Assembly: GCA_011174795.1 (NCBI GenBank)
Contig: DUEY01000002.1
Coordinates: 11,013 to 75,012 of the forward strand
DNA: 64,000 bases
From: Dehalococcoidia bacterium
Lineage (GTDB): Bacteria; Chloroflexota; Dehalococcoidia; SZUA-161
Reading direction: 5' to 3'
Below the pieces are notes generated by a model. That model was given only the letters and a program-made list of their open reading frames with translations. It was not told where the DNA came from and ran no database searches. The position numbers and the translations under genes are program-made. Positions 1,384 to 37,203 of the stretch are shown in pieces (positions within the stretch are counted from its first letter, which is position 1; each line of letters opens with the position of its first letter).

Positions 1384-2175
1384 ATGAGCAAACTACTAGA
1401 GAAGTTAGAGCTGCTATCCGAGGGAAGAGCCCAGCCCCTGGGTTTCGGGGCTGCTGCAGCCCGGGCAAAGAGCCCTCAGATGGTGGTAGTAGCCAGCGTA
1501 CCCGCGGGGGATATCAAGCTGGTAACGACAACCATAAAAGCAGGTGCCGATGCGGTATTAGTGACTATTGAGCATGAGTCCAAGAAGGAAGAGGCCCTGT
1601 CTCAACTCAGTAGGACTAAAATTGAGATTCCATGGGGTGTTTCACTGGACAAGGTAACAAGGGAAGAGGCCAGGCAACTCGCTGAGATAGGTTGTGACTT
1701 CGTCGTCTTCGCCCCTGCCGAGACACCGGCAGCGCTTTTAGGCGAGGAGAAAATCGGTAAAGTACTTCGGCTCGACGCTTCTCTGGAAGATAGCCTCACC
1801 AGGACTATAAACCGCCTCTCCGTCGACGCCATACTCCTCAGTCGGGCAGGTGAGGAGCAGTCTCCGCTTACCGTGCATCAACTCATGGTCTACGAGCGTC
1901 TTGCCGCCAGTGCGGGGAAGTACCTTCTCGCAGACATGCCGCCAGGATTGCCAACTGACGATGTAGAGAGCCTGTGGGAACTGGGGGTACGTGGTTTAGT
2001 GGTAGACCTGGCAGTTAAGGACCCCGAGCAGAGGCTGTCGCAGGTGCAGGAAGCGATTCAAAAGCTGCCGACAACCAGAAAAAAGAAAAGAGGGGGAATC
2101 GCCGCGACTCTACCTCTGGCAGGAGCGCAGTCAGAGATAACACAACCTGATGAAGATGATGAAGAGGATATCTAG
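1384..2175 (+). CDS. hypothetical protein with acidic C-terminal tail (possibly HpcH/HpaI aldolase/citrate-lyase-like TIM barrel; weak)
   Basis: Clean 263-aa ORF with an SD-like GGGAGGGGG upstream. No motif recognised with confidence. Confidence 0.45.
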   Translation: MSKLLEKLELLSEGRAQPLGFGAAAARAKSPQMVVVASVPAGDIKLVTTTIKAGADAVLVTIEHESKKEEALSQLSRTKIEIPWGVSLDKVTREEARQLAEIGCDFVVFAPAETPAALLGEEKIGKVLRLDASLEDSLTRTINRLSVDAILLSRAGEEQSPLTVHQLMVYERLAASAGKYLLADMPPGLPTDDVESLWELGVRGLVVDLAVKDPEQRLSQVQEAIQKLPTTRKKKRGGIAATLPLAGAQSEITQPDEDDEEDI

Positions 2176-2471
2176 CCCAGTATGAAAGCCAGTACGATGA
2201 GAACGAGAATCATGACCCCTGCCAGCAAACTGATCTTCCTCAGGTCATCCCTCACGTACTGATAGCCGTGCGCTGCCCGCTTCAACCCCGGTTTCGCTTT
2301 CGGTGCAGCTTTTGCCTCCGGGCTCTTAACGGGCGTGGGTTCAGCTACCTCCTGAGTCTGCTGTACGGGAAGTGCTCCCGTTGCTACAGGGAGTTTGCTC
2401 CGCTTCTTCTTCTTGCTCGCCCTGCTCAACTCCGAGTACTTGGCGGCTCTTCTGCGTGACTTCTTGGCCAT
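2172..2471 (-). CDS. small lysine-rich C-terminally anchored membrane protein (hypothetical)
   Basis: Internal Met of the 201-aa track ORF was chosen so that the gene does not overlap the divergent radical SAM gene. It has a K/R-rich N-terminal region and a single C-terminal TM helix (ISLLAGVMILVLIVLAFILG). Confidence 0.3.
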   Translation of the reverse strand: MAKKSRRRAAKYSELSRASKKKKRSKLPVATGALPVQQTQEVAEPTPVKSPEAKAAPKAKPGLKRAAHGYQYVRDDLRKISLLAGVMILVLIVLAFILG

Positions 2472-2642
2472 CCTACTTATCGCCCTGAACCCTTCACAGG
2501 CTTTGTCCAATTCTATCTCTTCAAGAGCGCTTTGGCAAGCGTCCCTGAAAATCTGTAAAGAGATAGACACAACCCCTGAGATATGATAGACTCTCGCTTG
2601 CCCCCGCTTTTTTAGGCAGGCTTGTTTTTGGGAGAGGATAGG

Positions 2643-3665
2643 ATGCGCGAGGCGATGCTCTACGAGAAACTGGCTGATGCCACCGTTCGCTGCAACGTAT
2701 GCCAGTGGCGCTGCATCATCAGGCCTGAAAAGTCCGGCCTTTGCCAGGTTCGGAAAAATACGGATGGCGTCCTCCATATCCTGAACTACGCCGAGGTGTC
2801 ATCAGTTGCAGTAGACCCCATCGAGAAGAAGCCGCTGTTCCACTTCCATCCCACCAGCATGGCCTTTTCCATCGGGGGCTGGGGCTGCAATTTTCACTGC
2901 AAGCACTGTCAGAACTGGGATATCTCATGCCAGACGCCATGGGAAAACAAGCAGGGCTCGAAACAAATATCGCCCGAGGAGTCAATCGCTCTCACCAAAC
3001 GCCACGGCTGTGAGGGGATCGCCTGGACCTATAACGAGCCCGGCATCTGGCTGGAATATACACTGGATGCGGCAAAGCTCGCCAAGGCAGAGGGACTATA
3101 TACCGTATATGTGACCAACGGCTACTCGACTCCCGAGGCGCTTGATGCTATAGGGCCTTACCTCGACGCCTGGAGAGTCGACGTCAAGGGATTCTCCGAC
3201 TCCTTCTACAGGCAACTGGCTAAGATACCGCAGTGGCGGGGCATACTGGAGGTCGCCGAAAGAGCGCAGGAGAAATGGGGCATGCATGTCGAGGTGGTGA
3301 CCAACATAATTCCTACCATGAACGACGACGATGAACAGCTTAAGGGTATCGCCACCTGGATACGCGACCGCCTGGGCGAACTGACTCCCTGGCATGTAAC
3401 CCGGTTCTACCCGCATCATAACCTTCAGCACCTCCCGCCGACTCCAGTAGCGACCATCGAGCATGCCTACAGTATCGGACAAAAGGCAGGCCTTCGCTTC
3501 ATTTACGTGGGCAACCTCCACGGCCACAGCGGAGAGAATACAACCTGCTACTCCTGCGGGCGGATTGTAGTACAGCGTATGGGATACCAGACCGAGCCAG
3601 TGGGGCTGGACGGCTCCACGTGCCGCTTCTGCGGAGCGGAACTGAATTTTAGGGTGAAACCCTGA
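2643..3665 (+). CDS. amrS: AmmeMemoRadiSam system radical SAM enzyme (AmrS)
   Basis: Radical SAM CxxxCxxC motif (CNFHCKHC). N-terminal Cys cluster (CNVCQWRC) and C-terminal Cys-rich tail (CYSCGR...CRFCG) are typical of AmrS. It lies adjacent to a Memo/AMMECR1 gene. Confidence 0.85.
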   Translation: MREAMLYEKLADATVRCNVCQWRCIIRPEKSGLCQVRKNTDGVLHILNYAEVSSVAVDPIEKKPLFHFHPTSMAFSIGGWGCNFHCKHCQNWDISCQTPWENKQGSKQISPEESIALTKRHGCEGIAWTYNEPGIWLEYTLDAAKLAKAEGLYTVYVTNGYSTPEALDAIGPYLDAWRVDVKGFSDSFYRQLAKIPQWRGILEVAERAQEKWGMHVEVVTNIIPTMNDDDEQLKGIATWIRDRLGELTPWHVTRFYPHHNLQHLPPTPVATIEHAYSIGQKAGLRFIYVGNLHGHSGENTTCYSCGRIVVQRMGYQTEPVGLDGSTCRFCGAELNFRVKP

Positions 3666-3680
3666 AGGGAGGAGGCTGCG

Positions 3681-5018
3681 ATGATCAGAGAACCGGTCGT
3701 AGCCGGGAGTTTCTATCCGGGCAAGCCCTCTTCGTTGGAAGCTGAGATTAAAGGGTTCACCGACGAGAAGGCCCCGAAAAAAGATGTTATTGGACTTGTC
3801 TCGCCTCATGCCGGATATATGTACTCCGGAGCGGTGGCTGGCGCTACAATCTCCCGGATTAAGTTCAAGGGCACATTTATCATCCTGGGCCCCAGCCACA
3901 CCGGGAGGGGCAAGCCCTTCAGCATTATGACCGAAGGCTCATGGAGGACGCCATTCGGCGAGGTGGAAATCGACTCCACGCTGGGGAAAGCGATACTTGC
4001 CAGGTCAAGACACCTCGAAGAGGACGCCGTTGCGCATCTCTATGAGCACTCCATCGAAGTCCAGCTACCCTTCCTCCAGTATTTCAAACGGGACATCAAA
4101 ATAGTGCCCATTGTCCTTTCACTCGCCCCCCCGTTTCTCTACACGGAGATCGGCGAGGAGATAGCCGATGTAATCATGAAGTCAAGGACCAAGCCGGTAA
4201 TCATCGCCAGCAGCGATATGACTCACTACGAGCCCCAGGAATCAGCCAAAAAGAAGGATACCGAGGCTATCAATGCGATATTGAACCTGGATGAAGACGA
4301 GCTCATGAGGCTGGTAATTGAGCGGAATCTGACGATGTGCGGGTACGCGCCGACGGCGGTCCTCATCGCAGCCGCTAAGAAGCTGGGAACAAAGGGGGCG
4401 GAACTCGTCGATTATAAGACAAGCGGCGACGTTACCAAAGACTACTCCAGCGTAGTAGGCTATGCGGGGATATTGATACTTAAGGGCAGAGCAAAGAAAG
4501 CGAAACCGAAGAAGATACACCCGCTGCCCAATCTGGCTAAGGAGACCGTTGAAAGCTATGTCAAAGATGGAAAGCTTCCCCGTCCCAAAGCGCTGACATC
4601 CACGATGAAAAAGCGGGCGGGCGTTTTCGTCACCATCAAGAAGCATGGCGAGCTGAGAGGCTGCATCGGCACCATAGAGCCCACGCAGCCCAACGTCGCC
4701 GAGGAGATAATCAGGAACGCAGTAAGCTCGTCAACACGCGACCCCCGCTTCCCTCCGGTGACGGCCAAGGAGCTGCCCGACTTGACCTACAGCGTCGATG
4801 TCCTCACCAAGCCCAAGCCGGTGTCAAGCGAAGAGCAGCTCGACCCGAAGAGATACGGCGTCATCGTGGAGATCGGACAGCGGCGCGGTCTGCTCCTCCC
4901 CAACCTGGAGGGAGTTGACACTATAGAGCAGCAGATAAGCATCTGCCGCCAGAAGGCAGGGATAGCTCCCGAAGAGCCGGTGAAGCTCTACAGGTTCGAG
5001 GTAAAGAGGTACAAGTAG
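3681..5018 (+). CDS. fused AmmeMemoRadiSam system protein B (Memo-like) and protein A (AMMECR1 domain)
   Basis: N-terminal Memo1 signature (VAGSFYPG...SPHAGYMYSG). The C-terminal ~180 aa form an AMMECR1 domain (RAGVFVTIKKHGELRGCIGTIEP). A Lys-rich linker (KGRAKKAKPKK) joins the two. Confidence 0.85.
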   Translation: MIREPVVAGSFYPGKPSSLEAEIKGFTDEKAPKKDVIGLVSPHAGYMYSGAVAGATISRIKFKGTFIILGPSHTGRGKPFSIMTEGSWRTPFGEVEIDSTLGKAILARSRHLEEDAVAHLYEHSIEVQLPFLQYFKRDIKIVPIVLSLAPPFLYTEIGEEIADVIMKSRTKPVIIASSDMTHYEPQESAKKKDTEAINAILNLDEDELMRLVIERNLTMCGYAPTAVLIAAAKKLGTKGAELVDYKTSGDVTKDYSSVVGYAGILILKGRAKKAKPKKIHPLPNLAKETVESYVKDGKLPRPKALTSTMKKRAGVFVTIKKHGELRGCIGTIEPTQPNVAEEIIRNAVSSSTRDPRFPPVTAKELPDLTYSVDVLTKPKPVSSEEQLDPKRYGVIVEIGQRRGLLLPNLEGVDTIEQQISICRQKAGIAPEEPVKLYRFEVKRYK

Positions 5019-5025: not shown

Positions 5026-6384
5026 ATGAAAAGCCAGAAGAAGAGCCCGGACCTCTTCCGACACGTCAGCGACAGACAGCTGGCGAATGATGCGCCCCTC
5101 GCCGCCCGCATGAGGCCGAGGAATTTCGCCGAGTTCGTGGGCCAGGAGCACATGATAGGGGAAGAGCACGTGCTGAGGAAGAGCATCGAGGCCGACCAGC
5201 TTCCCTCAATCATCTTCTGGGGCCCGCCTGGGAGCGGCAAGACCACCCTCGCCCATATCATCGCCAGTGTCACCAAGTCGCATTTCAGCCCTATATCCGC
5301 GGTGGCGGCAGGCGTCGCTGACCTGCGCCGCGTGGTGGACGAGGCTATGGAGCGCCGCGGCATGTACCAGCAGAGGACCGTCCTCTTCATCGACGAGATA
5401 CACCGCTTCAACAAAGCGCAGCAGGACGCCATACTTCCTTACGTCGAGAACGGCACCATCACCCTGATAGGCGCTACCACCGAAAACCCCTCCTTCGAGG
5501 TAATCGCACCCCTGCTCTCGCGCTGCCGCGTGTTCACCCTGAACGCGCTCACCGATGAACAGGTCAGGCTCATAGTCCAGCAGGCGCTGGAAGACAAAGA
5601 GCGGGGCCTGGGGAATATGAAGGTAGAACTGGACGACGACGCCCTTGACTTCCTGTTAGTTATGTCAAATGGAGACGCCAGGGTTGCGCTCAATGCCCTG
5701 GAGCTCGCCGCCACAACAGCCCTGCCCTCGAAGGACGGCAAGCGCCGTATTAAGCTCAGCGACATCGAGGATGCCCTCCAGCACCACGCCCTGCTCTACG
5801 ATAGAGCCGGAGAGGAGCATTACAACATCATCTCCGCCCTTCATAAGTCGCTGCGGGACTCCGACCCCGACGGCGCTCTCTACTGGCTGGGGCGGATGCT
5901 GGAGGCCGGAGAGGACCCTCTTTACATCGCCCGGCGGCTGGTCAGGTTCGCCTCAGAGGACGTGGGCATGGCCGACCCCCAGGCGCTGGTCATCGCCACC
6001 TCCGCCCAGCAGGCAGTTCATTTCATCGGCATGCCGGAAGGCAACCTGGCACTGGCTCAGGCTGTGGTCTACCTCGCTACCGCGCCCAAGAGCAACTCCC
6101 TGTACAAGGCCTACACCAGCGTACAGCAGGACGTGGAGAAGACGAGAGCTGAGCCGGTCCCGCTCCACCTGCGCAACCCCGTAACGCCCCTGATGAAAAA
6201 GATGGGCTACGGCAAAGACTATAAGTACGCCCACAATTTCCCGAGGCATTTCGTCAGGCAGCAGCATCTCCCCGACCGGCTCAAAGGAAGGACATACTAC
6301 GAGCCCAGCAACCAGGGCTTCGAGCAAGAGATCGAGGAACGACTCAAGAAGTGGCGCAGCAAGGGAAAAGAGGACGTAAAGTAG
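5026..6384 (+). CDS. rarA: replication-associated recombination protein A (AAA+ ATPase)
   Basis: Walker A motif GPPGSGKTTLA, then the MgsA/RarA C-terminal region (LHKSLRDSDPDGALYWLGRML). Confidence 0.9.
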   Translation: MKSQKKSPDLFRHVSDRQLANDAPLAARMRPRNFAEFVGQEHMIGEEHVLRKSIEADQLPSIIFWGPPGSGKTTLAHIIASVTKSHFSPISAVAAGVADLRRVVDEAMERRGMYQQRTVLFIDEIHRFNKAQQDAILPYVENGTITLIGATTENPSFEVIAPLLSRCRVFTLNALTDEQVRLIVQQALEDKERGLGNMKVELDDDALDFLLVMSNGDARVALNALELAATTALPSKDGKRRIKLSDIEDALQHHALLYDRAGEEHYNIISALHKSLRDSDPDGALYWLGRMLEAGEDPLYIARRLVRFASEDVGMADPQALVIATSAQQAVHFIGMPEGNLALAQAVVYLATAPKSNSLYKAYTSVQQDVEKTRAEPVPLHLRNPVTPLMKKMGYGKDYKYAHNFPRHFVRQQHLPDRLKGRTYYEPSNQGFEQEIEERLKKWRSKGKEDVK

Positions 6385-6485
6385 CAAACCACATCTTCAG
6401 CATAAAAAGCCCCGGATTTCGACTACAGGGCATCTGACAGGACATTAGCGCACCACCCAGTCGGCAGGTTCAAGGAAGCTAAGCT

Positions 6486-7133
6486 ATGAGTGAAACCAGG
6501 GCAACATTTCCCTGCGATAACCTATCCCTCGAGGGGGTCTACAACGTCCCCGACGGCGAAGGCCACTTTGCCGCGGTGGTGGTCTGCCATCCCCATCCCC
6601 TCTATGGGGGCATGATGGACAACAATGTCGTCATCGCCGTCTGCCAGGCCCTGGCACAGGCGTCCATCATCTCCCTGAGGTTTAACTTCCGCGGCGTTGG
6701 TTTGAGCCAGGGGCAGCATGACAATAGCATCGGCGAGCAGGACGATATCGGCGCGGCGCTCTCCTTTATCGCGTCGCTCGAGCAGGTCGACCGTGAGAGG
6801 CTCGGGCTTTGCGGTTACTCCTTCGGCGCCGGCGTTGCCCTCGACGTCGCTGCCAGGGATGAGCGGGTGAAGGCACTGGCGCTGGTGTCGCCTCTACTTT
6901 CCCACCCCTCGCCCATAGAGAGCTATGGCAAGCCGAAGCTTCTCCTGTGGGGCAGCAGGGACCTCGCACTGCCCGCCGCTGACCTCAAGAGCTTCACCGA
7001 CGAGCTCCCGGAGCCCAGGCAATACGAGATAATCTCGGGAGCCGACCACTTCTGGTGGGGCTACGAGGGTGAGATAGCTCCCCGGATTGCCACCTTCTTT
7101 ACAGACACGCTTCACCCTGATTCGCAGAGCTAG
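6486..7133 (+). CDS. alpha/beta hydrolase (dienelactone-hydrolase-like)
   Basis: GxSxG nucleophile elbow (GYSFGAG). Overall length and pattern fit an alpha/beta hydrolase fold. Confidence 0.65.
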   Translation: MSETRATFPCDNLSLEGVYNVPDGEGHFAAVVVCHPHPLYGGMMDNNVVIAVCQALAQASIISLRFNFRGVGLSQGQHDNSIGEQDDIGAALSFIASLEQVDRERLGLCGYSFGAGVALDVAARDERVKALALVSPLLSHPSPIESYGKPKLLLWGSRDLALPAADLKSFTDELPEPRQYEIISGADHFWWGYEGEIAPRIATFFTDTLHPDSQS

Positions 7134-7582
7134 GGCATCTCCCCCCATTCAACAGACATCTTCCGTACATCCCTCCCACTATCGCCGAGACGGCGGCGAA
7201 ACTCTGTGAACGATGGCGCGGTGGGGAAATAGACCAGGTGGGAAACACACCCACATCCCGAGGAGCCGAAGCCAGCGACCGGCACCTTGGCCTGAGATAT
7301 ACCTGCTGCAGCCTGATACCAGCGACACTCGAGACTTTCATCGGAAACCAGATACCAGACCTCGACCACCCTCGCCTCCCGCCTCAGATAATCGATGTGC
7401 CAGTGGAGCTTGTTGCCACCCTTAATATGCCGCCTGACCCGGGGGAAAAGACCTCCCAGCGCGCTGCCAGCGTAGAGATAGTAACCCGCAGGGAAGGAAA
7501 ACTTGGTCAGCTTCCCCACAGTGATGGCAGAGTCTTTATCCAGAGCTAGGATAAGGGCGTACGTGCCCCTAGCAGGCTTCAC
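7130..7582 (-). CDS. DUF123 domain protein (GIY-YIG-like nuclease superfamily)
   Basis: Pattern GTYALILAL...GKL..F.AGYYLYAGSA...HWHIDYL is characteristic of DUF123. Confidence 0.55.
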   Translation of the reverse strand: MKPARGTYALILALDKDSAITVGKLTKFSFPAGYYLYAGSALGGLFPRVRRHIKGGNKLHWHIDYLRREARVVEVWYLVSDESLECRWYQAAAGISQAKVPVAGFGSSGCGCVSHLVYFPTAPSFTEFRRRLGDSGRDVRKMSVEWGEMP

Positions 7583-28767: not shown

Positions 28768-30357
28768 TCAGTGCACATGTTTCAAGTCGCCATCCATCGT
28801 GCCCCTCACCTTCTCCCTCTCCTCGGCAAAATCGAAACCCGTCCAGATTCCGATTGAACCAAGCACCGAGTCCTGAGGATGGTACTTACGGAAGATTTTA
28901 AAATAGTATGCCGCTTCCCGGCTGTTTATCTTCGCCAAAGGATTCTCAGCCTTGATGCGCTCGAAATCATCCTCACTTATTTCACTGTGAGCCAGCTTTT
29001 CCCCAAGGTCTTCGCAGCCCGCTCCCTGTGTGTACTGCACCTTGTAGCGCCATAGTATATCGTCGGGGAGGTAACCGGTATCTTCAAACGCCTTGCGCAG
29101 AATCCACTTCTCTATCCTATCCCCGACATATTCAGACTCACGAATCTTGAGCTCGGGAGGAATCTTCATAGCGAGGTCGACCATAGCTACATCCAAGAAA
29201 GGCACCCGTAACTCCAGGCTGAAGTACATCCCCATTCGGTCCGCACGCTGCAGGTTTATATTATGGAGATTGCCGATGCAGCGCCTCGCCTCCTTATTGA
29301 GAACATCAATGGGATAATGCTTCATATAGTGATAGCCCGTGAATATCTCGTCCGCCCCCTCACCTGTGAGCACCACCGTCACGTAATCGGCAGCCAGCTT
29401 GCAGGTGAAATAACAGGGAACGGCACAGCGTACAAGTGAAGGATCGTAGCTCTCAAGCTCCTTTATAACAATCGGCAGCGCCTCATAGTATTCATCCTCG
29501 GTAAATATCAACTCGTGATGTGTTGAGCCAATATGTTTTGCCGCAATACGGGAGGCCTTAAGGTCATCGCTCTCATCGCCGGATTCATCCTTCATGCCCA
29601 CCACGAAGGTGTGAAGATGAGGTATCTCTTCAGCAGCTATTGCAGCCACCAAGCTGCTGTCCAAACCGCCACTGCAGAAGGAGCCCACATGGATCTCCTT
29701 ATCCGACAACAACCTTTTCTTAACCGCCCGAATAAACGTTTCCCTGATTTTCATACAGGTCTGGTCTATATCCGTCAACATATGATCTTCGATAGGCGGA
29801 ATCTCATAGTACTGTACAAACCCCTCCTTAGGGGTGTAATAGTGCCCGGCGGGAAACTCATGACACTCCTCCACACCAGCCAGCGTCATAGCACCGAGTT
29901 CCGAGGAGAAATAAAGCTTGTCCTCAACATAGCCATAGTAGAGGGGTTTAATACCGATAGGATCGCGGGCCAGCATAAAATCATCACCATCGAAGATGGC
30001 AAATGCGAACATACCATCGAGTTCTTCTACACACCGAGGTCCTTTCTCTCGGTAAAGATGAAGAATTGATTCAGTATCCGACTGGGTCAGGAACTCGTAT
30101 TTAGAGATGAGCTTCTGCCGTAACTCCCGGTAGTTGTAGATTTCACCATTACAGATTATCCCCGTCCTTCCACCATTTACCAGAATGGGCTGATGGCCTT
30201 TAGCAACATCGACAATAGACAGCCTGGTGTGACCAAATACCGTGTTGTTGAAAGTATGGAGTCCGCGGTCATCTGGCCCTCGATGAGGCAGTGCGTCCAG
30301 CATTCGATTGATTGTCTTTTCGTCTCTGGTGCCAAAACAACCTGCTATGCCACACAT
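28768..30357 (-). CDS. asnB: asparagine synthase (glutamine-hydrolysing) family protein
   Basis: N-terminal MCGIAG Cys nucleophile, RLSIVD glutamine-binding motif, PP-loop SGGLDSS. Confidence 0.85.
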   Translation of the reverse strand: MCGIAGCFGTRDEKTINRMLDALPHRGPDDRGLHTFNNTVFGHTRLSIVDVAKGHQPILVNGGRTGIICNGEIYNYRELRQKLISKYEFLTQSDTESILHLYREKGPRCVEELDGMFAFAIFDGDDFMLARDPIGIKPLYYGYVEDKLYFSSELGAMTLAGVEECHEFPAGHYYTPKEGFVQYYEIPPIEDHMLTDIDQTCMKIRETFIRAVKKRLLSDKEIHVGSFCSGGLDSSLVAAIAAEEIPHLHTFVVGMKDESGDESDDLKASRIAAKHIGSTHHELIFTEDEYYEALPIVIKELESYDPSLVRCAVPCYFTCKLAADYVTVVLTGEGADEIFTGYHYMKHYPIDVLNKEARRCIGNLHNINLQRADRMGMYFSLELRVPFLDVAMVDLAMKIPPELKIRESEYVGDRIEKWILRKAFEDTGYLPDDILWRYKVQYTQGAGCEDLGEKLAHSEISEDDFERIKAENPLAKINSREAAYYFKIFRKYHPQDSVLGSIGIWTGFDFAEEREKVRGTMDGDLKHVH

Positions 30358-30426: not shown

Positions 30427-31908
30427 TTATGCATTATCCAGGAAGAAAGCCGGCCTGAAAGGATCCCACCTGCCTACTAACCTATCGAAGGCAGGATCGG
30501 GGAATGTCTCCTTGAACATCCGGTAGTAATACAACTCCTCAACTGACGACAACCAGGGGGTATCCTCGGTCCTGTTGTGTTCTGCCAGGTCGATTGATGA
30601 GAGGTGCTTCTCAGCCTCCTCACGCATAGCATACGCTACACCAGAGCCCTGAGCGAAGAACCGCTTCGTCTGGTAGATGATGTGGTCGGGCAAACAACCC
30701 TCAAAGGCCTGTCGCAGGACCCACTTCCCCGTCTGCTCAGGGCCATGAATCTTGCAACTTAGTGGGATCTTCAGACAAAAGTCCATCACCCTTGCATCGA
30801 GGAACGGTGTGCGGCTTTCATACGAATTCGCAGCATTCAGTCTATCCAGCCGTTGTAGTGCTGTATTATGAGCAACATTGATAAGCTGGTCGACTATACT
30901 GGCGATCTCCTCAAGGTTTTTTCCCTGCCTGAACTGGCCGTCATACCCGGCTAAGAACTCATCAGCCCCTTCCCCAGTAAGAACGCACTTAGCATGCGGG
31001 CTGACAAAGCGCCCTGCCAAGAAATTGGCGATTGCACCGTGTACACAGCTTTCCTCATACATCTCCTGATGATAGATGGCCAAAGGCAGTATCTCGCTTA
31101 TCTCTTTTTCGCTAAACATCAAGATATGATGCTTAAGGCCAAGGTACTCCGTCACATCCTTTGCCAGCGGCAGGTCCTGCCCCTCCTCCATACTCACCGT
31201 AAAGCATTCGATATCCGGCTTTACCTCGTGGGCCATATAGGCAATAAGGCTGCTGTCCAGACCGCCACTCAGGAGGATACCTTTTACAGCGTTGTCCCTC
31301 ATCCTCTTTTCAGTTGCTTCCATTAAAAGCTGCTTTACCACTTTCTTGGCTTGCTCATAATCCTCGAAATCCGGTGTTTCGACGGCCTCGGAAGTCGGAT
31401 ACTTCTGGAATCCCAGTTCGCGGGAGTAAACGTATCCGGGCGGGAACTCCCTGACATCTCTAGAGATGCCCACCAGTGCTTTTGCCTCAGATGCAAAGCA
31501 CAGGCTCCCATCACTGTTATGCCCGTAGTATATCGGTTTAATACCAGCCCAATCACGAGCCAGTATTAGCTTGCCATTATCCGACACGGCACAGGCAAAG
31601 TCGCCGTTTATCTTAGCGGCAAAGCGGGTGCCGAACCTGACGTACAGGTCAAGCACAGCCTCAGCGTCGGCTTTAGTTCCCTTATCCGAATTGTAAACAC
31701 GCCCATCGAGAACGACCGCTACCTTGCCGTCAGAGGTATAATGGGAGCCATCCCTGCAGTCTGCACCCATATTCAGCTCATTGCAACCTACATTCACCTC
31801 GCCTTCGCGGCTCGTCCAAGTCTCGTGAGGGCCTCTGTGCTTGATCCGCTCAAGCATTCGGTCTAGCTCACCGTTATCAGCACCCTGAACTCCCGCTATT
31901 CCTGCCAA
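30427..31908 (-). CDS. AsnB-family ATP-dependent amidoligase with degenerate glutaminase domain (Cys1 replaced by Ala; beta-lactam-synthetase-like architecture)
   Basis: The N-terminus is MAGIAG (no Cys), and the glutamine-binding RLSI motif is replaced. The PP-loop SGGLDSS is retained. Confidence 0.75.
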   Translation of the reverse strand: MAGIAGVQGADNGELDRMLERIKHRGPHETWTSREGEVNVGCNELNMGADCRDGSHYTSDGKVAVVLDGRVYNSDKGTKADAEAVLDLYVRFGTRFAAKINGDFACAVSDNGKLILARDWAGIKPIYYGHNSDGSLCFASEAKALVGISRDVREFPPGYVYSRELGFQKYPTSEAVETPDFEDYEQAKKVVKQLLMEATEKRMRDNAVKGILLSGGLDSSLIAYMAHEVKPDIECFTVSMEEGQDLPLAKDVTEYLGLKHHILMFSEKEISEILPLAIYHQEMYEESCVHGAIANFLAGRFVSPHAKCVLTGEGADEFLAGYDGQFRQGKNLEEIASIVDQLINVAHNTALQRLDRLNAANSYESRTPFLDARVMDFCLKIPLSCKIHGPEQTGKWVLRQAFEGCLPDHIIYQTKRFFAQGSGVAYAMREEAEKHLSSIDLAEHNRTEDTPWLSSVEELYYYRMFKETFPDPAFDRLVGRWDPFRPAFFLDNA

Positions 31909-31978: not shown

Positions 31979-32653
31979 CTACTGGTAGGCGTCCAGTACC
32001 TTAACAGCATCGAAGCCATCCACACAATAGGCATCCGCCCCTATCTCGCTGGCGTACTCATCGGACACCGCTGCCCCACCAATGAGAACCTTAACCTTGT
32101 CCCTGAGGCCACTCTCCTCCAGCGCCTTAATTACATTACCCATGACTACCATCGTGGTTGTCAGTAGAGCGGACAGCCCCAGATACTGAGGCTTCTCTTC
32201 CCTGACGAACTCAACAATCTTCTCCGTGGGCACATCTATACCCAGGTCATGCACCTCGTATCCCGCCCCTTTGAGCAAAATGGACACAATGTTCTTCCCG
32301 ATATCGTGTATATCACCCTGAACCGTGGCTATAGCGAATTTCCCCTTGGTCTCCACATTAGAAGCTTCCAGATGCGGCTTGAGCACATCCATGGCTGCGC
32401 CTACCGCCTCGGCAGAGGCAAGCATATCGGGGATGAAGTATTCCTTCGTAGAGAATTTCTCACCTACCACCTGCATCCCCGCAGTCAAACCCTCCGTGAT
32501 TATCACCTGCGGTGAGATACCCTTATCCAGAGCCTCCTTCGTCAACTCAAGAACACCGGGACCCGTGAGTTCCTCATCTATCCCTTCATCTTCCTCGGTT
32601 TTTCTTCCCTGGATAACGTTCTCCTTCATTGCCGCAATAATGTCCTCGCCCAT
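31979..32653 (-). CDS. cobalamin-binding corrinoid protein (second copy)
   Basis: DxHxxG motif (DIHDIGKN). Paralog of the 19109-19753 protein. Confidence 0.8.
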   Translation of the reverse strand: MGEDIIAAMKENVIQGRKTEEDEGIDEELTGPGVLELTKEALDKGISPQVIITEGLTAGMQVVGEKFSTKEYFIPDMLASAEAVGAAMDVLKPHLEASNVETKGKFAIATVQGDIHDIGKNIVSILLKGAGYEVHDLGIDVPTEKIVEFVREEKPQYLGLSALLTTTMVVMGNVIKALEESGLRDKVKVLIGGAAVSDEYASEIGADAYCVDGFDAVKVLDAYQ

Positions 32654-32655
32654 TT

Positions 32656-34197
32656 TTATCTCCTTTCCTCATATACGTTTAGTCTCGGCAACAAGCCGGG
32701 AATCTCCTGGAATATCTTAGCTGTTGTAGCCTTATCAATATGCTCTACCGGCTTCTCCAGGAGTTCCTGCATCCTGTCATATGCTATTTTAAATACGCTG
32801 TCCGTCTCCCCATCACCCTCAAAGGGATAGGGCGGCGAGAGTTGCCCGCTACGCATAACCTTGCGGATATAGCTGATATAAAGCTTCTGTGGTGTCGTTA
32901 CGACCTCCCGTATCTGCTTCAAGACCTCAGCAATCTCAGTTTCGTCAATACGCGGCGGCCTTAGGAAAAACTTAATCATCTGGAAGTGGGCATCATCCAG
33001 CACAGCCTGAAGAAGGCAGAAAACGGAATTGCAGTCAAGCAGACCGTATGCGCAGTGCAAGTACTGGGGCCCGCTCAAGGTAACCAATATGTCTGAGAAT
33101 AAACGCTCTATCGATGCTTGCTGTCCGGGCGTCTTCGTATCACAGACGCCCGCAGTCGAATAGTTAGGTATCCTGTAGAATCGCGCCATCTGGACGCAGT
33201 CGACATTGTACTGGCTGGTTTCAACAGCACCGTAGGAATCGCCGAGGGTATCCATGCGAGCCCGAACGGGGACGCTTCCATAAATGACCGGCGTACCCTT
33301 ATTTACCAGCTGACTCAAGGTTATACCCGCTAGAACCTCCGCGTTTATCTGAGCCATGATACCTGCTTCCTTGATAGGAGCGGTGCTCCCCGCCTGGGGT
33401 GACGAAGAAACCACCAGTGGCAGTCCCCTTCGGCAAATCTCGATAAATGTATCCGTAGTGTCCTCGACAAATTGCAGGGGGCTCTTGACCAGACAGGTGA
33501 TGAAGGAGATGATGGGATTCTCCCTAAGCTCTTCCTCCCCACCCACTATTATCTTCGCCATATTCACAACATTATCTAGTTGCTTCAGGCTGGTTAACCC
33601 CGACATAAAATGCTTGGTGTTATTATTCAAAGAGGCGAAATATTTATTGACGTCCTTATTCTCCTCTGTTATGTCCCTATCCTGAATGTTAACTGTACGG
33701 ATGTAGCCATCCACAGTCTCCAGATGCTCACAGACATGTGCTGACTTGCAGAGGTCAGCCACAGTACCGCGTCGCGGGTGGAACTCAGGCACCTGAATCT
33801 CCGTAGCAGGGTCGGATTTCTTCACATAGGTCGGGAAATCGACATCCAGCCAGATATTGGTTTCAGAGCCCGTGATAAAACGTACCCTTGGCTCTTCGCC
33901 ATCCAGTATCAGCATGTTCTCGGGATTCCTAGCGCCTAATTTAACCGTCTTGGGTGCGCTATCGAGGGCCTCGATAACTACCTTCTCCGGGATTCTCACC
34001 AGCCAGCACGGATGGTCGCTGGGGGAAACCGGCGTAACCTCCGCACCTTTGCCATCGAATATCTCAGCGGCCTCACGATTGAAAGACATCAGGCCAGGGT
34101 CGCTCAATATCTCTATGGAAGCCTGGTGAATCTGTTCCACCTGCTCTCTGGTCATCCTTTCGTAAGGCTTCTCAACTAAGATTCCTTCCCTAGGCAC
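32656..34197 (-). CDS. MttB-superfamily methyltransferase (non-pyrrolysine)
   Basis: 513 aa, colinear with the other MttB paralogs, uninterrupted ORF. Confidence 0.85.
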   Translation of the reverse strand: MPREGILVEKPYERMTREQVEQIHQASIEILSDPGLMSFNREAAEIFDGKGAEVTPVSPSDHPCWLVRIPEKVVIEALDSAPKTVKLGARNPENMLILDGEEPRVRFITGSETNIWLDVDFPTYVKKSDPATEIQVPEFHPRRGTVADLCKSAHVCEHLETVDGYIRTVNIQDRDITEENKDVNKYFASLNNNTKHFMSGLTSLKQLDNVVNMAKIIVGGEEELRENPIISFITCLVKSPLQFVEDTTDTFIEICRRGLPLVVSSSPQAGSTAPIKEAGIMAQINAEVLAGITLSQLVNKGTPVIYGSVPVRARMDTLGDSYGAVETSQYNVDCVQMARFYRIPNYSTAGVCDTKTPGQQASIERLFSDILVTLSGPQYLHCAYGLLDCNSVFCLLQAVLDDAHFQMIKFFLRPPRIDETEIAEVLKQIREVVTTPQKLYISYIRKVMRSGQLSPPYPFEGDGETDSVFKIAYDRMQELLEKPVEHIDKATTAKIFQEIPGLLPRLNVYEERR

Positions 34198-34252
34198 GTT
34201 ATTCCTCCTGATTAACTCAACAATTAGCAGAGCCCTGGTATCTATATCGCGG

Positions 34253-35062
34253 CTACTCTACCAGCAGGCCCTTCCTGTGAGCCCTGATAAAGCCTTTACA
34301 CGATGGGTCATTCCCCGTAAGCATATCAGCAACCCTGATGAAACTCATCATCCTAGCATCCAGTGGGTTCAGAATAGCGGCATCGAGCCCCGCAGAAGCT
34401 GCCATTACAAGAAAGGCACGGTTGACCAAACCCCGGTTCGGCAATCCGTAAGAGATGTTGCTGAGCCCGACCACAGTTTTTGCGGAAGGATAACGGGACT
34501 TAATCCCCTCAATAGTCTTCAGCGTGACGAACCCCTGGTTAGAATCTACAGAAACGGGAAGCACCAGAGGGTCGAAGAATATCTGCTCCTCCTGCATCCC
34601 CAGACGAGTCAAGTGCACCATGATCGACTCAGCAGCGTCGAGACGCTCGTCAACGGTGGGAGGGATTCCCCCCTCTCCCATAACCAGCGCCACCAGCGAA
34701 GCCCGGCGCTCCGCTGCTAATCTACCCACAGGTTCCAGCCTGTCAGGCTCGGCATTGACCGAATTGATCATCACATTGTCACCACGGTATTTACGCAAGC
34801 CAGCCTCAATAATGGAGGGAGTATCGCTATCAATAGCCAGCGGCTTCTCCGTTACTGACTGAACGATATCCACTAACCACTCCATCGCCATCGCAGGATT
34901 CTCCCAGGTGCCGTGGCCAACCCCAGCGTTTACATCTATGAAATCGGCCCCGGCAGCATCCTGCTCCCTAGTAAGGTTCTCCAGGAACTCCTGATTTTTA
35001 TTCGATATTGCCTCACCAACCGACTTGTTGGAGGCATTTATCTTCTCACCAATTACTAGCAA
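34253..35062 (-). CDS. methyltetrahydrofolate:corrinoid methyltransferase (MtrH/MeTr-like), second copy
   Basis: MLVIGEKINASNK...GADFIDVNAG. Paralog of the 18270-19067 protein. TTG start. Confidence 0.75.
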   Translation of the reverse strand: MLVIGEKINASNKSVGEAISNKNQEFLENLTREQDAAGADFIDVNAGVGHGTWENPAMAMEWLVDIVQSVTEKPLAIDSDTPSIIEAGLRKYRGDNVMINSVNAEPDRLEPVGRLAAERRASLVALVMGEGGIPPTVDERLDAAESIMVHLTRLGMQEEQIFFDPLVLPVSVDSNQGFVTLKTIEGIKSRYPSAKTVVGLSNISYGLPNRGLVNRAFLVMAASAGLDAAILNPLDARMMSFIRVADMLTGNDPSCKGFIRAHRKGLLVE

Positions 35063-35078
35063 CTTTCTACACTCCCAT

Positions 35079-36521
35079 CTACGATTCTACGATGCCTTTT
35101 ATCTCAGACAACACTCTGGCTCTTATGTCAACAGGCAAGCTATAGCCGTCTTTTGCCAAGATATCATCCACCCTCGCCGCCGCCCTCTCCCATGTTTTCT
35201 TAGCCCCTCCAGCCTCCCAATCCCCTCGGCTATTCCTATCGCTGAGCGCAGGCTGATAATGTTGATCTCGCATAAACCGCCTGGTATGCTTGGCGGAAAC
35301 GAAATTACCCCCCGGCCCCACCTCCTTAATGAGGTCAAAGGCCATCGTCTCCTCGTTCACCTCTATACCCTGAACAGCCCTCATCACCATCCCCAGTATC
35401 TCGTTATCCACAACATATTTCTCATAGCATGCAGTCAGAGCAAACTCCATAAGACCTGCAGCGTCGTGGATATAATTTGCGCCAGCCAGAGCATTGAGAA
35501 GTCCAGTGATAGCAGACTCATATCCGCTCTGTGCATCCACAACCTTAGCGTCAGTCATGCCTCCGGTGGAATAGAAGGGGAGCTGGTAAAACTGCGCCAT
35601 CTGTGCCCCACCCGCGTTAATGAGGCCCATCTCAACAGAGCCAGCCAGATAATTGAAGTTACTGAGGTCTGTGCTCGTTGCCACCGAGCCCAGAATAACA
35701 GGCGTCCCCGGACTCGCGAGTTGGGTAAGCATCACGCCCATCAATGAGTCTACTGTTTGCATTAATATATTACCGGCGAGCGTCACCGGCGAGGTAGCCC
35801 CACAGAGCGGTTCTGCGGGGCAGACCACAGGTATGCCGCTTCTTGCGATAGCTATCATAAAGTCGCCGTACTCTTTGTCTATCTTCAACGGGCTTATGGT
35901 ACAGGCTATCATCGATATAATAGGACGCTGGCGAAGGCTATCGGCAGAACCGGCGATAATCTCCGCCATCTTTATCACCTGCTTCAGACCATCCATGGTA
36001 TATAGCCCGCCCATAACATGCTTGCTGGTATTGTCCAAGCCTGCGAAGAAGCGATTTATGTCCACCTGCTCTATTGGCAAATCGTTAGGGTATGTAGGCA
36101 GCAGGAAGAAGTGGATATTATCCAGGTGGTCAACCAGCTTGGCGATGCACCTCAGGTCATCCAGGGTGGCAGGTGTCTTTTCACCCGTAGCCTGCCGAAA
36201 GATGTTCAGGGCAGTCCCCCCCGTCCCTGCATAGACACGAGTTCCACCCAGATGAAGATCGTGCTTCTCCTCTTGACCGCAGAGCGTTATCTCAGACGGC
36301 GCCATCTCTATCAGTTCCATCGCCTTCTCAGTTGGTAAACGCACCAGCCTCTTTTCGTCATCCACCAAAGCCCCCGCCCTCCTGAAAAGGTCCAGTCCGT
36401 TATCGGAATGAACCTGAAAGCCTACTTCCTCGATTACTCTCATGACATTCAGGTGCATCATCTGAATGCCCTCTTCGGTAATCGGCTTAAAGCTGCCGCC
36501 GGGTAATCCCCTCCGTATCAT
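35079..36521 (-). CDS. MttB-superfamily methyltransferase (non-pyrrolysine)
   Basis: Start set at the internal Met preceded by a strong SD (AGGAGGTG), which avoids a 62-nt overlap with the upstream gene. 480 aa. Confidence 0.8.
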   Translation of the reverse strand: MIRRGLPGGSFKPITEEGIQMMHLNVMRVIEEVGFQVHSDNGLDLFRRAGALVDDEKRLVRLPTEKAMELIEMAPSEITLCGQEEKHDLHLGGTRVYAGTGGTALNIFRQATGEKTPATLDDLRCIAKLVDHLDNIHFFLLPTYPNDLPIEQVDINRFFAGLDNTSKHVMGGLYTMDGLKQVIKMAEIIAGSADSLRQRPIISMIACTISPLKIDKEYGDFMIAIARSGIPVVCPAEPLCGATSPVTLAGNILMQTVDSLMGVMLTQLASPGTPVILGSVATSTDLSNFNYLAGSVEMGLINAGGAQMAQFYQLPFYSTGGMTDAKVVDAQSGYESAITGLLNALAGANYIHDAAGLMEFALTACYEKYVVDNEILGMVMRAVQGIEVNEETMAFDLIKEVGPGGNFVSAKHTRRFMRDQHYQPALSDRNSRGDWEAGGAKKTWERAAARVDDILAKDGYSLPVDIRARVLSEIKGIVES

Positions 36522-36528
36522 ATAGGTT

Positions 36529-37203
36529 TCACCTCCTGCCCAGACAATCGTATTTACGACAGGTTTCACAGGGATTGTAATTCTTCGCACCGCTATCGGG
36601 CGTACTTATACCAATAATACCTGAGATTGACTTTTGGGGAACCATAAGATAACCCTCGGTAAGTTGAACCCCTATCGAATCTCCTTCCAAAGCCGTAAAA
36701 ACCATCTCCTGCTGACTTATGTCCCAGTCACAATAGCCTGGGCTGAAGCGCCGACTGGTAACAAGTCCCTCAACCCTGGCTTTGTCATCCAGAATCCCCT
36801 TAACGAAATCTGCTAATTTTTCGACTGCATCTGACCCTATTGCATCCAGAACGTACGACTGAAGTATAAGCCCGTCTTCAGCCAGCCTATTAGCCATTTC
36901 CTCAAGATATTTCCCTATTGTTACTACAAATAACGCAACCTTACAACACCTGTCCAGCAGGCGAGCAATAACCTCGCCGTTAAACACGATCGACCCTTCA
37001 ATATAGATGTTAGAGCCCACCACCTGCTCGATATCCCTGATAATATATACGTACAACGGCTCGATTAGATTGTGAGCCTCTCCCATATATTCTTTAATCA
37101 AAGAAGAAATACGCAACGATGGTTTAATGCCATTGCGATATCCCAGATGGCGACACACGTTTTTTCTATCGATTTTTATATCTATATGATCGCTAGTAAC
37201 CAT
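36529..37203 (-). CDS. standalone vitamin-B12-dependent methionine synthase activation (reactivation) domain homolog
   Basis: RRFSPGYCDWDIS and LTEGYLMVPQKSISGIIG align with E. coli MetH RPAPGYPACPEHT and LTESFAMWPGASVSGWYF of the AdoMet-binding reactivation domain. Confidence 0.7.
   Translation of the reverse strand: MVTSDHIDIKIDRKNVCRHLGYRNGIKPSLRISSLIKEYMGEAHNLIEPLYVYIIRDIEQVVGSNIYIEGSIVFNGEVIARLLDRCCKVALFVVTIGKYLEEMANRLAEDGLILQSYVLDAIGSDAVEKLADFVKGILDDKARVEGLVTSRRFSPGYCDWDISQQEMVFTALEGDSIGVQLTEGYLMVPQKSISGIIGISTPDSGAKNYNPCETCRKYDCLGRR

What the first reader, a model, noticed from the sequence alone, without database searches (positions are those of the whole stretch)
2622..5018. AmmeMemoRadiSam system with Memo and AMMECR1 fused into one polypeptide
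The radical SAM partner (AmrS) is followed by a 445-aa protein whose N-terminal part is a Memo1-like domain (SPHAGYMYSG) and whose C-terminal part is an AMMECR1 domain (RGCIGTIEP), joined by a Lys-rich linker. The biochemical function of this widespread three-component system is unknown. A natural fusion of components B and A supports the idea that they work as a physical complex. rarA follows 8 nt downstream and may be co-transcribed.
Basis: partly seen in the sequence, partly recalled or inferred. Interest (0 to 1): 0.55.

Follow-up and report, generated by a model that had tools for sequence, protein, structure and literature searches.

The report
Fused Memo–AMMECR1 gene beside AmrS
This is a genuine two-gene AmmeMemoRadiSam locus whose Memo and AMMECR1 partners are joined into one protein, an arrangement reported in 2007 and normal in Dehalococcoidia, so it is ordinary apart from the unusually clear origin of its linker.

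Summary
amrS (TIGR04337, 296 bits) is followed by a 445-aa ORF carrying Memo (aa 4-264, E 7e-79) and AMMECR1 (aa 284-443, E 3e-49). rarA starts 7 nt after its stop codon. The fusion is real: three metagenome samples have an identical junction, and an 87%-identical homolog keeps a same-length linker with substitutions but no indel.

It is not new. Balaji & Aravind (2007) reported AMMECR1 fused to this "dioxygenase". 65 of 72 complete Dehalococcoidia species loci are fused. 93 of 150 diverse cluster representatives are fused, always B then A. JGI already labels them "protein B/protein A".

What I add:
- The window's Lys-rich linker is a read-through of a former stop codon, a 13-nt Shine-Dalgarno spacer (now 12 nt) and the AmrA start. 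This shows against the split closest relative, L077.
- Fusion and fission recurred at least 4 times in this clade.
- There is no sign of internal re-initiation.
- rarA is only a synteny neighbour, across a variable 0-3.4 kb slot.
- AlphaFold gives two confident domains on a disordered tether (pTM 0.62).

The function remains unknown. Side finding: a large subfamily has Tat-signal AmrS and signal-peptide B–A fusions.

The parts
2564..2592 (+). Promoter-like site upstream of amrS (TAGACA-17-TAGACT with TG). Weak evidence only.
   Evidence: Consensus scan. It lies in the 170-nt gap after the divergent 99-aa gene (2172-2471, minus strand).
2643..3665 (+). amrS, the AmmeMemoRadiSam radical SAM enzyme (340 aa from ATG 2643; the mechanical ORF starts at TTG 2622). 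Its cysteine sets are C17-x2-C20-x3-C24-x9-C34, the radical SAM motif C82-x3-C86-x2-C89, and C302-x2-C305...C327-x2-C330.
   Evidence: TIGR04337 295.8 bits against a cut-off of 220. Pfam Radical_SAM. Shine-Dalgarno sequence and ATG. All 11 of these Cys are 100% conserved in 69 sequences. The nearest solved structure is PFL-activase, at only 30 bits.
3666..3680 (+). amrS-amrBA spacer holding the AGGGAGGAGG Shine-Dalgarno sequence for amrBA.
   Evidence: Sequence. In relatives the two genes mostly overlap by 4 or 8 nt, which implies translational coupling.
3681..4478 (+). AmrB (Memo) domain of the fusion, aa 1-266. The metal-site residues are H43, H73, D179, H182 and C220.
   Evidence: Pfam Memo E 6.6e-79. 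TIGR04336 316.5 bits. These residues align with human MEMO1 H49, H81, D189, H192 and C244 and are invariant in 119 homologs. Foldseek TM about 0.8 to MEMO1 structures 7m8h, 7kq8 and 3bcz.
4479..4517 (+). Linker LKGRAKKAKPKKI (aa 267-279). Against the split relative L077, G269 aligns with the former amrB stop (TGA vs GGC), R270-K273 with the former 13-nt Shine-Dalgarno spacer (now 12 nt), A274 with the former amrA ATG (now GCG), and I279 with a second former ATG (now ATA).
   Evidence: Three-frame reading and DNA alignment against L077. pLDDT <50 for residues 270-278. P0002 has KGRTRKAKPAKI at the same length.
4518..5018 (+). AmrA (AMMECR1) domain of the fusion, aa 280-445 plus the stop codon. 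The predicted active-site motifs are R326-G327-C328-I-G330 and D354-P-R356-F357.
   Evidence: Pfam AMMECR1 E 2.9e-49. TIGR04335 143.1 bits against a cut-off of 99. The motifs are invariant and match the RGChG/DxRa site predicted by Balaji & Aravind. Matches to PDB 1zq7, 1vaj and 1wsc.
5026..6384 (+). rarA/mgsA (AAA+ recombination factor). It is an adjacent and probably co-transcribed neighbour, not a component of the system.
   Evidence: MgsA_C 247.6 bits. The gap is 7 nt and no + strand terminator lies between the genes. In 46 related loci the distance ranges from -1 to 3381 nt, with unrelated genes in between.

Best explanation
The locus is a two-gene version of the three-component AmmeMemoRadiSam system: amrS plus amrBA, in which protein B (Memo) and protein A (AMMECR1) form one 445-aa polypeptide.

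Shown:
- All three family signatures are present, and the catalytic or metal residues of each are intact.
- The fusion is real and is conserved in independent samples.
- In this sublineage the junction matches a read-through of the old amrB stop codon, the Shine-Dalgarno spacer (13 nt, now 12 nt, which restores the frame) and the amrA start codon. This produced a disordered Lys-rich tether.
- Both former Met codons are gone, so the product is an obligate fusion.

Inferred (about 0.7): this fusion event is independent of the linker-less fusion that dominates Dehalococcoidales, so B-A fusion recurred.

Inferred mechanism (about 0.4):
- AmrS and AmrBA are made in roughly equal amounts from coupled genes and act as one holoenzyme on a third-party small substrate, such as a metabolite, nucleobase or isoprenoid-type molecule.
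- AmrS cleaves SAM to the 5'-deoxyadenosyl radical and abstracts a hydrogen atom from substrate held in the AMMECR1 cleft.
- The invariant Cys328 there, with Asp354 and Arg356, serves as a radical relay or covalent catalyst.
- The His/His/Asp/His/Cys metal site of the Memo domain carries out a follow-on step that does not need O2, since the host appears to be an anaerobe.
- Tethering B to A fixes 1:1 stoichiometry and keeps the two sites close.

rarA is a bystander.
For: Identity: every HMM above its curated cut-off; Memo H43/H73/D179/H182/C220 and AMMECR1 RGCxG/DPRF are invariant and align with solved homologs; CX3CX2C plus eight more invariant Cys in AmrS; fold matches to MEMO1 and to archaeal AMMECR1 proteins.

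Fusion is real: (identical junction in the window, L084 and L085; L083/P0002 diverged by substitutions only).

Origin of the linker: L077 has TGA, AGGGAGAG, then ATG where the window reads through; the window groups with the split loci; at least 4 state changes on the tree; L045 '...KGGGG*MHPL' against L012 '...KGGGDEMHPL'.

Obligate fusion: (Shine-Dalgarno-like motif before the junction Met in 10% of genes, against 21% at other internal Mets and 97% at true starts).

Coupling to AmrS: (amrS immediately upstream in every locus with enough flank, mostly overlapping by 4 or 8 nt).

B-A as a unit: 93 of 150 diverse representatives fused, always in the order B then A, and none fused to AmrS; fusion and neighbourhood published, with Cys predicted as catalytic.

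Anaerobic context: corrinoid/MttB methyltransferase cluster; a near-identical contig comes from a sample labelled SMTZ.
Against: No experiment on any member of this system was found. The mechanism therefore rests on residue conservation, gene context and analogy.

AlphaFold does not predict a fixed B-A interface (pTM 0.62 although pLDDT is 90), so active-site proximity is not shown.

The NJ tree behind the 'independent fusion' claim is midpoint-rooted and has no support values. The alternative direction, that L077 split from a fused ancestor, is not strictly excluded.

AmrS's nearest characterised relatives all act on proteins rather than small molecules.

Distant fused B-A proteins often lack a nearby AmrS, so B-A can probably work without it.
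Confidence: 0.85

Rival explanations
1. AmrS is an activase-type radical SAM enzyme whose substrate is the AmrBA protein itself. It would install a radical or a post-translational modification on or near the Gly-flanked Cys328 loop (LRGCIG) of the AMMECR1 domain. The modified B-A module would then be the working enzyme.
For: All characterised families that AmrS resembles are protein-directed glycyl-radical activases: PFL-AE, NrdG, YjjW and CutD-type. The locus has no precursor peptide, transporter or further biosynthetic genes. In 93 fused representatives AmrS is never the fused partner, as would be expected for an enzyme and its substrate. The invariant Cys is exposed in a cleft.
Against: The similarity to activases is weak: 41 bits against a cut-off of 231.75. 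amrS and amrBA are translationally coupled, which suggests a stoichiometric complex rather than a catalytic activase. Eukaryotes keep Memo and AMMECR1 without any AmrS (established knowledge). Many distant B-A fusions lack a linked AmrS. No glycyl-radical motif of the RVxG type is present.
Confidence: 0.25
2. The fusion is an artefact. A sequencing or assembly indel in the A-rich linker merged two separate genes, amrB and amrA.
For: The closest species-level relative, L077, has separate genes that differ by a stop codon and a 1-nt indel exactly in this region. The linker DNA is A-rich.
Against: The junction DNA is identical in three independent metagenome samples (window, L084, L085). L083/P0002 (87% amino-acid identity) keeps the frame through many substitutions and has no indel. 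The window has no ATG, GTG or TTG at either former start position, and no stop codon. There is no long homopolymer: the longest A run is 3 nt.
Confidence: 0.02
3. The gene is fused, but two proteins are still made, because translation re-initiates internally at the relic AmrA start and yields free AmrA.
For: 49 of 65 fused relatives keep an ATG at the junction position.
Against: The window has ATA and GCG at the two former Met codons. In relatives, Shine-Dalgarno-like motifs precede the junction Met no more often than other internal Mets, and far less often than true starts: 10% vs 21% vs 97%.
Confidence: 0.04
4. rarA is a functional fourth component of the system, linking it to DNA replication or repair.
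For: The gap is 7 nt with no intervening + strand terminator. rarA lies downstream on the same strand in 46 related loci.
Against: The distance ranges from -1 to 3381 nt. The interval is filled with unrelated, patchy genes: toxin-antitoxin pairs, nitroreductase-like and glyoxalase-like proteins, methyltransferases and 36 singletons. rarA is absent near distant B-A fusions. It is a near-universal housekeeping gene (established knowledge).
Confidence: 0.04

Closest known systems
Canonical three-gene AmmeMemoRadiSam system (amrS, amrB, amrA; NCBIfam TIGR04337, TIGR04336, TIGR04335)
   Same: All three signatures are present above their curated cut-offs, and the genes are adjacent and co-oriented. 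As in the canonical system, the biochemical function is unknown.
   Different: B and A are one polypeptide here, so the locus has two genes rather than three.
Linker-less AmrB-AmrA fusions of Dehalococcoidales (for example P0121 = MDD5121846.1, labelled by JGI as 'protein B/protein A')
   Same: Same domain order (B then A), same upstream amrS, 56-71% identity and the same class of bacteria.
   Different: Those join '...GYAGIIIK' directly to '(G/E)M(S/H)PL' and keep a relic Met. The window has about 10 extra Lys-rich residues derived from the old spacer and has lost both Met codons. It groups with the split loci, which suggests a separate fusion event.
AMMECR1-'ring-opening dioxygenase' gene fusions reported by Balaji & Aravind 2007 (PMC2034487)
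   Same: The same architectural class, and the same inference that AMMECR1, the Memo/LigB-like protein and the radical SAM enzyme act in one pathway.
   Different: That paper does not discuss Dehalococcoidia or the origin of the junction. It proposed an RNA base modification, which remains untested.
Human MEMO1 (PDB 3BCZ, 7KQ8 iron-bound, 7L5C copper-bound)
   Same: Same fold (TM about 0.8) and all five metal-site residues conserved.
   Different: Only about 22% identity. MEMO1 is a stand-alone eukaryotic protein with no radical SAM partner, and its signalling roles cannot be carried over to this protein.
Archaeal AMMECR1 homologs PH0010 (1VAJ), MM0484 (1ZQ7) and ST0229 (1WSC)
   Same: Same fold, with the RGCxG and DPRF motifs.
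   Different: Those are stand-alone proteins of about 200 aa, and their function is also unknown.
Pyruvate formate-lyase activating enzyme (PDB 3C8F, 3CB8)
   Same: The closest solved relative of AmrS, with the same CX3CX2C core.
   Different: Only 30 bits, and the score against TIGR02493 is 41 against a cut-off of 231.75. AmrS has two extra four-Cys sets, and no glycyl-radical enzyme partner was identified.

Membership tests
AmmeMemoRadiSam system | A radical SAM enzyme of family TIGR04337 scoring above the curated cut-off | tested here: met
   295.8 bits against a cut-off of 220
AmmeMemoRadiSam system | Protein B (Memo-like, TIGR04336) scoring above the cut-off | tested here: met
   316.5 bits against 26; also NF001987 at 307.7 against 295
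AmmeMemoRadiSam system | Protein A (AMMECR1-like, TIGR04335) scoring above the cut-off | tested here: met
   143.1 bits against 99
AmmeMemoRadiSam system | The three components are encoded together | tested here: met
   amrS ends 15 nt before amrBA on the same strand. This adjacency holds in every related locus with enough flank.
Radical SAM superfamily | A CX3CX2C motif for the [4Fe-4S] cluster that binds SAM | tested here: met
   C82-x3-C86-x2-C89 is 100% conserved. Pfam PF04055 68 bits against 29.5.
Radical SAM superfamily | Reductive cleavage of SAM to the 5'-deoxyadenosyl radical | not testable with these tools
   Requires an anaerobic enzyme assay.
Memo family (PF01875) | The His/His/Asp/His/Cys metal-binding site of MEMO1 | tested here: met
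   H43, H73, D179, H182 and C220 align with MEMO1 H49, H81, D189, H192 and C244 and are invariant in 119 sequences.
AMMECR1 family (PF01871) | The RGChG and DxRa motifs lining the inter-domain cleft | tested here: met
   R326-G-C328-I-G330 and D354-P-R356-F357 are invariant.
Glycyl-radical enzyme activases (PFL-AE, TIGR02493) | Score above the family cut-off | tested here: not met
   41.1 bits against 231.75. The other activase models are also far below their cut-offs. AmrS is related to these enzymes but is not a member of their families.
LigB extradiol dioxygenases (PF02900) | Score above the gathering threshold | tested here: not met
   16.6 bits against 26.3. Only a fold-level resemblance is seen.
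RarA/MgsA (the neighbouring gene) | An AAA+ domain plus the MgsA_C domain | tested here: met
   MgsA_C 247.6 bits, AAA_assoc_2 97.8 bits and AAA 56.4 bits.

The most novel reading that the evidence does not exclude
B-A fusion has arisen repeatedly, with at least 4 fusion or fission events within Dehalococcoidia alone and a separate large set of distant fused families, while AmrS is never the fused partner. This fits a model in which the tethered Memo-AMMECR1 module is itself the target of AmrS, which would install a radical or a modification at the invariant Cys328 loop. If so, the window's obligate fusion with a flexible linker would be a convenient single-chain construct for finally assigning a biochemical activity to the MEMO1 and AMMECR1 families, both linked to human disease.
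Probability: 0.2. Interest if true: 0.7.

Novelty: new member of a known kind. Interest (0 to 1): 0.3.

Why it matters
MEMO1 and AMMECR1 are conserved from archaea to humans and are linked to human disease, yet neither has an agreed biochemical activity. The prokaryotic AmmeMemoRadiSam system is the best genomic clue to what they do.

This window adds no new kind of evidence. The B-A fusion was published in 2007 and is standard in Dehalococcoidia. It does add three smaller things:
- It documents at nucleotide resolution how one such fusion formed: stop-codon loss plus a 1-nt deletion in the Shine-Dalgarno spacer.
- It shows that fusion and fission recurred, always in the order B then A and never with AmrS. 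This strengthens the case for a 1:1 B-A unit whose B C-terminus lies near the A N-terminus.
- It shows that linker lengths of 4-45 residues are tolerated, which is useful for designing single-chain constructs.

The side observation constrains the function more. Subfamilies with Tat-signal AmrS and signal-peptide B-A fusions are hard to reconcile with an RNA-modifying role in those lineages.

Tried and rejected
Literature:
- Burroughs et al. 2019 (JBC; PCAD-Memo superfamily) is not held under its DOI or its PMC id. What it says about fusions or exported forms could not be checked.
- Seven full-text searches found no biochemical study of the prokaryotic system. Only the 2007 RAGNYA paper and a passing mention in an eLife 2020 paper were relevant. 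PMC10924467 was irrelevant.

Tested and rejected:
- Sequencing artefact.
- Internal re-initiation at the relic Met.
- rarA as a system component.

Inconclusive or uninformative:
- AlphaFold was run to look for a defined B-A interface. The pTM of 0.62 with a disordered linker leaves this open, and no coordinates or PAE were available to measure the distance between the two active sites.
- Foldseek against the PDB found no entry covering both domains and no informative third fold.
- The PDB sequence search found no solved AmrS-family structure.
- The genome scan returned only the 80 best loci, all Dehalococcoidia or Chloroflexota. The taxonomic range of the distant fused families was therefore only glimpsed through source names such as Zixibacteria and Aminicenantes.
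Full report
**1. What is in the sequence.** Mechanical ORF listing gives three co-directional ORFs: 2622-3665 (347 aa from a TTG), 3681-5018 (445 aa) and 5026-6384 (452 aa).

- Pfam finds Radical_SAM in the first ORF. In the second it finds Memo (aa 4-264, E 6.6e-79) and AMMECR1 (aa 284-443, E 2.9e-49). In the third it finds MgsA_C, AAA_assoc_2 and AAA.
- NCBIfam places the first two ORFs in the three AmmeMemoRadiSam families, each above its curated cut-off: TIGR04337 at 295.8 against 220, TIGR04336 at 316.5 against 26, and TIGR04335 at 143.1 against 99.
- The spacer to rarA is 7 nt.
- amrS more likely starts at ATG 2643, behind a GGGAGAGGA Shine-Dalgarno sequence. Independent gene callers report 340 aa on near-identical contigs.
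- amrBA has a strong AGGGAGGAGG Shine-Dalgarno sequence.
- The long minus-strand ORF overlapping the amrS start (2172-2777) is really a 99-aa gene ending near 2471.

**2. Are the catalytic features intact?** phmmer against the PDB aligns the N-terminal domain with human MEMO1. H43, H73, D179, H182 and C220 fall on the MEMO1 metal ligands H49, H81, D189, H192 and C244. The C-terminal domain aligns with the archaeal AMMECR1 proteins MM0484, PH0010 and ST0229.

In an alignment of 119 fused homologs those five Memo residues are invariant. So are R326-G-C328-x-G330 and D354-P-R356-F357, the RGChG/DxRa site predicted by Balaji & Aravind.

AmrS has the radical SAM motif C82-x3-C86-x2-C89 plus two further fully conserved four-Cys sets, one N-terminal and one C-terminal. 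Its nearest solved relative is PFL-activase at only 30 bits, and it is far below the cut-off of every activase family.

**3. The closest species-level genome, L077, does have two separate genes here. amrB ends '...VILMR' followed by TGA, then comes AGGGAGAG-AACCC, then ATG for 'MKAEKMHPLAKLAKDTVESY' in another frame. I therefore took the artefact hypothesis seriously. It fails for these reasons:

- The junction DNA is identical in the window and in contigs from two other metagenome samples, L084 and L085.
- The 87%-identical P0002/L083 has the same-length linker (KGRTRKAKPAKIHPL against KGRAKKAKPKKIHPL). It differs by many nucleotide substitutions and has no indel.
- The window has no stop codon there and no usable start codon at either former Met position.

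**4. How the junction arose.** Column by column, the window compares with L077 as follows:

- L077's TGA aligns with the window's GGC (G269).
- L077's 13-nt spacer aligns with 12 nt in the window (R270-K273).
- L077's ATG aligns with GCG (A274).
- L077's second ATG aligns with ATA (I279).

So the Lys-rich 'linker' is the translated remnant of a stop codon, a Shine-Dalgarno spacer and the AmrA N-terminal leader. A 1-nt deletion brought it into frame. AlphaFold predicts residues 270-278 to be disordered (pLDDT <50), between two confident domains (mean pLDDT 90.4). The pTM of 0.62 means the mutual orientation of the domains is not fixed with confidence.

**5. How common is the fusion?** It is very common.

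- All 120 best database hits are full-length proteins of 435-464 aa with both Pfam domains. They come from Dehalococcoidales, Dehalococcoidia or Chloroflexota, and JGI already names several 'AmmeMemoRadiSam system protein B/AmmeMemoRadiSam system protein A'.
- A scan of species-representative genomes found at least 386 loci. The 80 kept are all from this lineage.
- Of 72 loci with a complete gene pair, 65 are one uninterrupted ORF and 7 are split.
- Most fused genes have essentially no linker. '...GYAGIIIK' runs straight into '(G/E)M(S/H)PL', and the M is a relic AmrA start, an ATG in 49 of 65.
- L045 ('...KGGGG*MHPL') and L012 ('...KGGGDEMHPL') differ by little more than a stop codon.
- On a neighbour-joining tree with the junction masked, the window groups with L077 and most of the split loci, outside the large linker-less clade. 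Fitch parsimony needs at least 4 state changes.
- Beyond this class, an exhaustive search of 50%-identity cluster representatives returned 18,385 hits. Of the best 150, 93 are B-then-A fusions at 34-61% identity and 57 are stand-alone Memo proteins. The order is always B then A, linkers span 4-45 residues, and none includes AmrS.

**6. Is it novel?** No. [quoted passage not shown] From this they infer a shared pathway with a catalytic Cys.

Burroughs et al. 2019 extended the Memo contexts. I know only its abstract, from memory, because the paper is not held. The window is therefore a new member of a known kind.

**7. Internal initiation?** The relic Met might let fused genes still make free AmrA. 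Shine-Dalgarno-like motifs (at least 4 nt of AGGAGGTG, 4-20 nt upstream) precede 97% of true starts. They precede only 10% of junction Mets, no more than the 21% seen at other internal Mets. The window lacks the Met altogether. These are obligate fusions.

**8. rarA.** amrS sits immediately upstream of amrBA in every locus with enough flank, usually overlapping by 4 or 8 nt, which implies translational coupling.

rarA lies downstream on the same strand in 46 loci, but at -1 to 3381 nt. The interval holds patchy, unrelated genes: RelE/ParE-type toxin-antitoxin pairs, nitroreductase-like and glyoxalase-like proteins, a tubulin/FtsZ-like protein, methyltransferases and 36 singletons.

In the window no + strand terminator separates the genes, so co-transcription is plausible but incidental.

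**9. Mechanism.** No experimental work on the prokaryotic system was found.

*Shown:*
- Three conserved active or metal sites.
- Tight amrS-amrBA coupling.
- Recurrent B-A fusion that never involves AmrS.

*Inferred, about 0.4:* a 1:1 AmrS-AmrBA holoenzyme acts on a third-party small substrate. AmrS abstracts a hydrogen atom from substrate held in the AMMECR1 cleft. Cys328 acts as a radical relay or covalent catalyst, following. The Memo metal site performs a follow-on step that does not need O2. The host context is anoxic: the window has a corrinoid/MttB methyltransferase cluster, and a near-identical contig comes from a sample labelled SMTZ.

*Main rival, about 0.25:* AmrS acts on AmrBA itself. 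This is suggested by its kinship to protein-directed activases and by AmrS never being the fused partner.

Against a strict dependence on AmrS, distant fused B-A genes often have no amrS within 5-6 kb.

**10. A side finding that bears on function.**

- Of the 93 distant fused representatives, 71 have an N-terminal extension of at least 20 aa. 65 of those are strongly hydrophobic and 21 have a lipobox-like motif.
- In locus L087 such a fusion sits beside a true AmrS (TIGR04337, 375 bits). That AmrS begins with a classical twin-arginine signal, MNRKFLSLSRRSFCRVAATTGG....
- Among its 120 best homologs (named sources include Zixibacteria, Aminicenantes and Deferrimicrobium), 116 have at least 45 residues before the first Cys cluster. 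At least 66 of them show an RR motif followed by a hydrophobic stretch.

If these are genuine export signals, the whole system is extracytoplasmic in those lineages. That is hard to reconcile with an RNA-modifying role and raises the question of where SAM and reductant would come from. No signal-peptide predictor was available, so this rests on motif inspection. The window's own proteins have no such extensions.

**11. Verdict.** What this analysis adds is the nucleotide-level origin of this particular linker, the evidence for recurrent fusion and fission, the exclusion of rarA from the system, and the side finding on signal peptides. Interest 0.3.

Noticed in passing
L087:3833-4996 (-) and 6001-7548 (+); proteins P0292-P0411, P0131, P0132, P0146, P0150: A large AmrS subfamily carries classical twin-arginine (Tat) signal motifs such as SRRSFCR, NRREFLKRAAGG and SRRGFLQK. 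Of 120 homologs, 116 have an N-terminal extension of at least 45 aa, and at least 66 of those have an RR motif followed by a hydrophobic stretch. Distant fused B-A proteins mostly carry Sec or lipoprotein-like signals (65 of 93). This suggests an extracytoplasmic AmmeMemoRadiSam system in Zixibacteria, Aminicenantes and other groups. I found no literature on it.
   Followed up: partly
L081, L086, L088, L089 (loci of P0131, P0132, P0283, P0211): Distant fused B-A genes often have no amrS within the 5-6 kb flanks. The B-A module may therefore work without a linked radical SAM partner, as it does in eukaryotes.
   Followed up: partly
P0247 (451 aa) and P0211 (861 aa; L089:462-3047): Two architectural variants. 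P0247 is a LigB (PF02900, 147 bits) plus AMMECR1 fusion in which Memo scores only 23 bits. P0211 is a Memo-AMMECR1 fusion preceded by a multi-pass membrane region of about 400 aa that has no Pfam match.
   Followed up: partly
L001-L080, interval between amrBA and rarA (0-3.4 kb): This interval is a variable insertion slot across Dehalococcoidia. It holds RelE/ParE-type toxin-antitoxin pairs, nitroreductase-like, glyoxalase-like and tubulin/FtsZ-like proteins, DNA methyltransferases and 36 singleton ORFs. In the window the slot is empty.
   Followed up: partly
window 35459-35558 (-), inside ORF 35079-36590 (-): Rfam PYLIS_3 (the mttB pyrrolysine insertion element) matches at 53.6 bits, inside an uninterrupted 503-aa MttB-family ORF (Pfam MTTB, 365 bits). 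The gene has no in-frame UAG, so it looks like a non-Pyl MttB homolog, and the RNA match probably reflects coding-sequence conservation.
   Followed up: partly
window 31979-37203 (-): A corrinoid methyltransferase cluster: a B12-binding protein (31979-32653), a second MttB-family protein (32656-34197), a pterin-binding methyltransferase (34253-35062), MttB (35079-36590) and a protein with a Met_synt_B12 reactivation domain (36529-37203). This is consistent with an anaerobic methyl-transfer metabolism.
   Followed up: partly
window 37665-37767 (+) and 37717-39114 (+): A TPP riboswitch (70.9 bits) lies directly upstream of thiC (ThiC_Rad_SAM, 649 bits). The mechanical TTG start of the ORF overlaps the riboswitch, so the true start is probably further downstream.
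   Followed up: no
window 28768-30357 (-) and 30427-31908 (-): Two tandem asparagine-synthase-like paralogs (GATase_7 plus Asn_synthase).
   Followed up: no
window 2172-2777 (-) and 1384-2175 (+): The 201-aa minus-strand ORF that overlaps the amrS start is really a 99-aa gene (about 2172-2471) with a basic N-terminus and a C-terminal hydrophobic helix. Neither it nor the upstream 263-aa ORF has a significant Pfam or NCBIfam match. Both are conserved only in the closest relatives (L077, L084, L085).
   Followed up: partly
window 6486-7133 (+) and 7130-7582 (-): An alpha/beta hydrolase (215 aa) follows rarA in many relatives, so rarA-hydrolase synteny is conserved. A DUF123 protein converges on it.
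   Followed up: no
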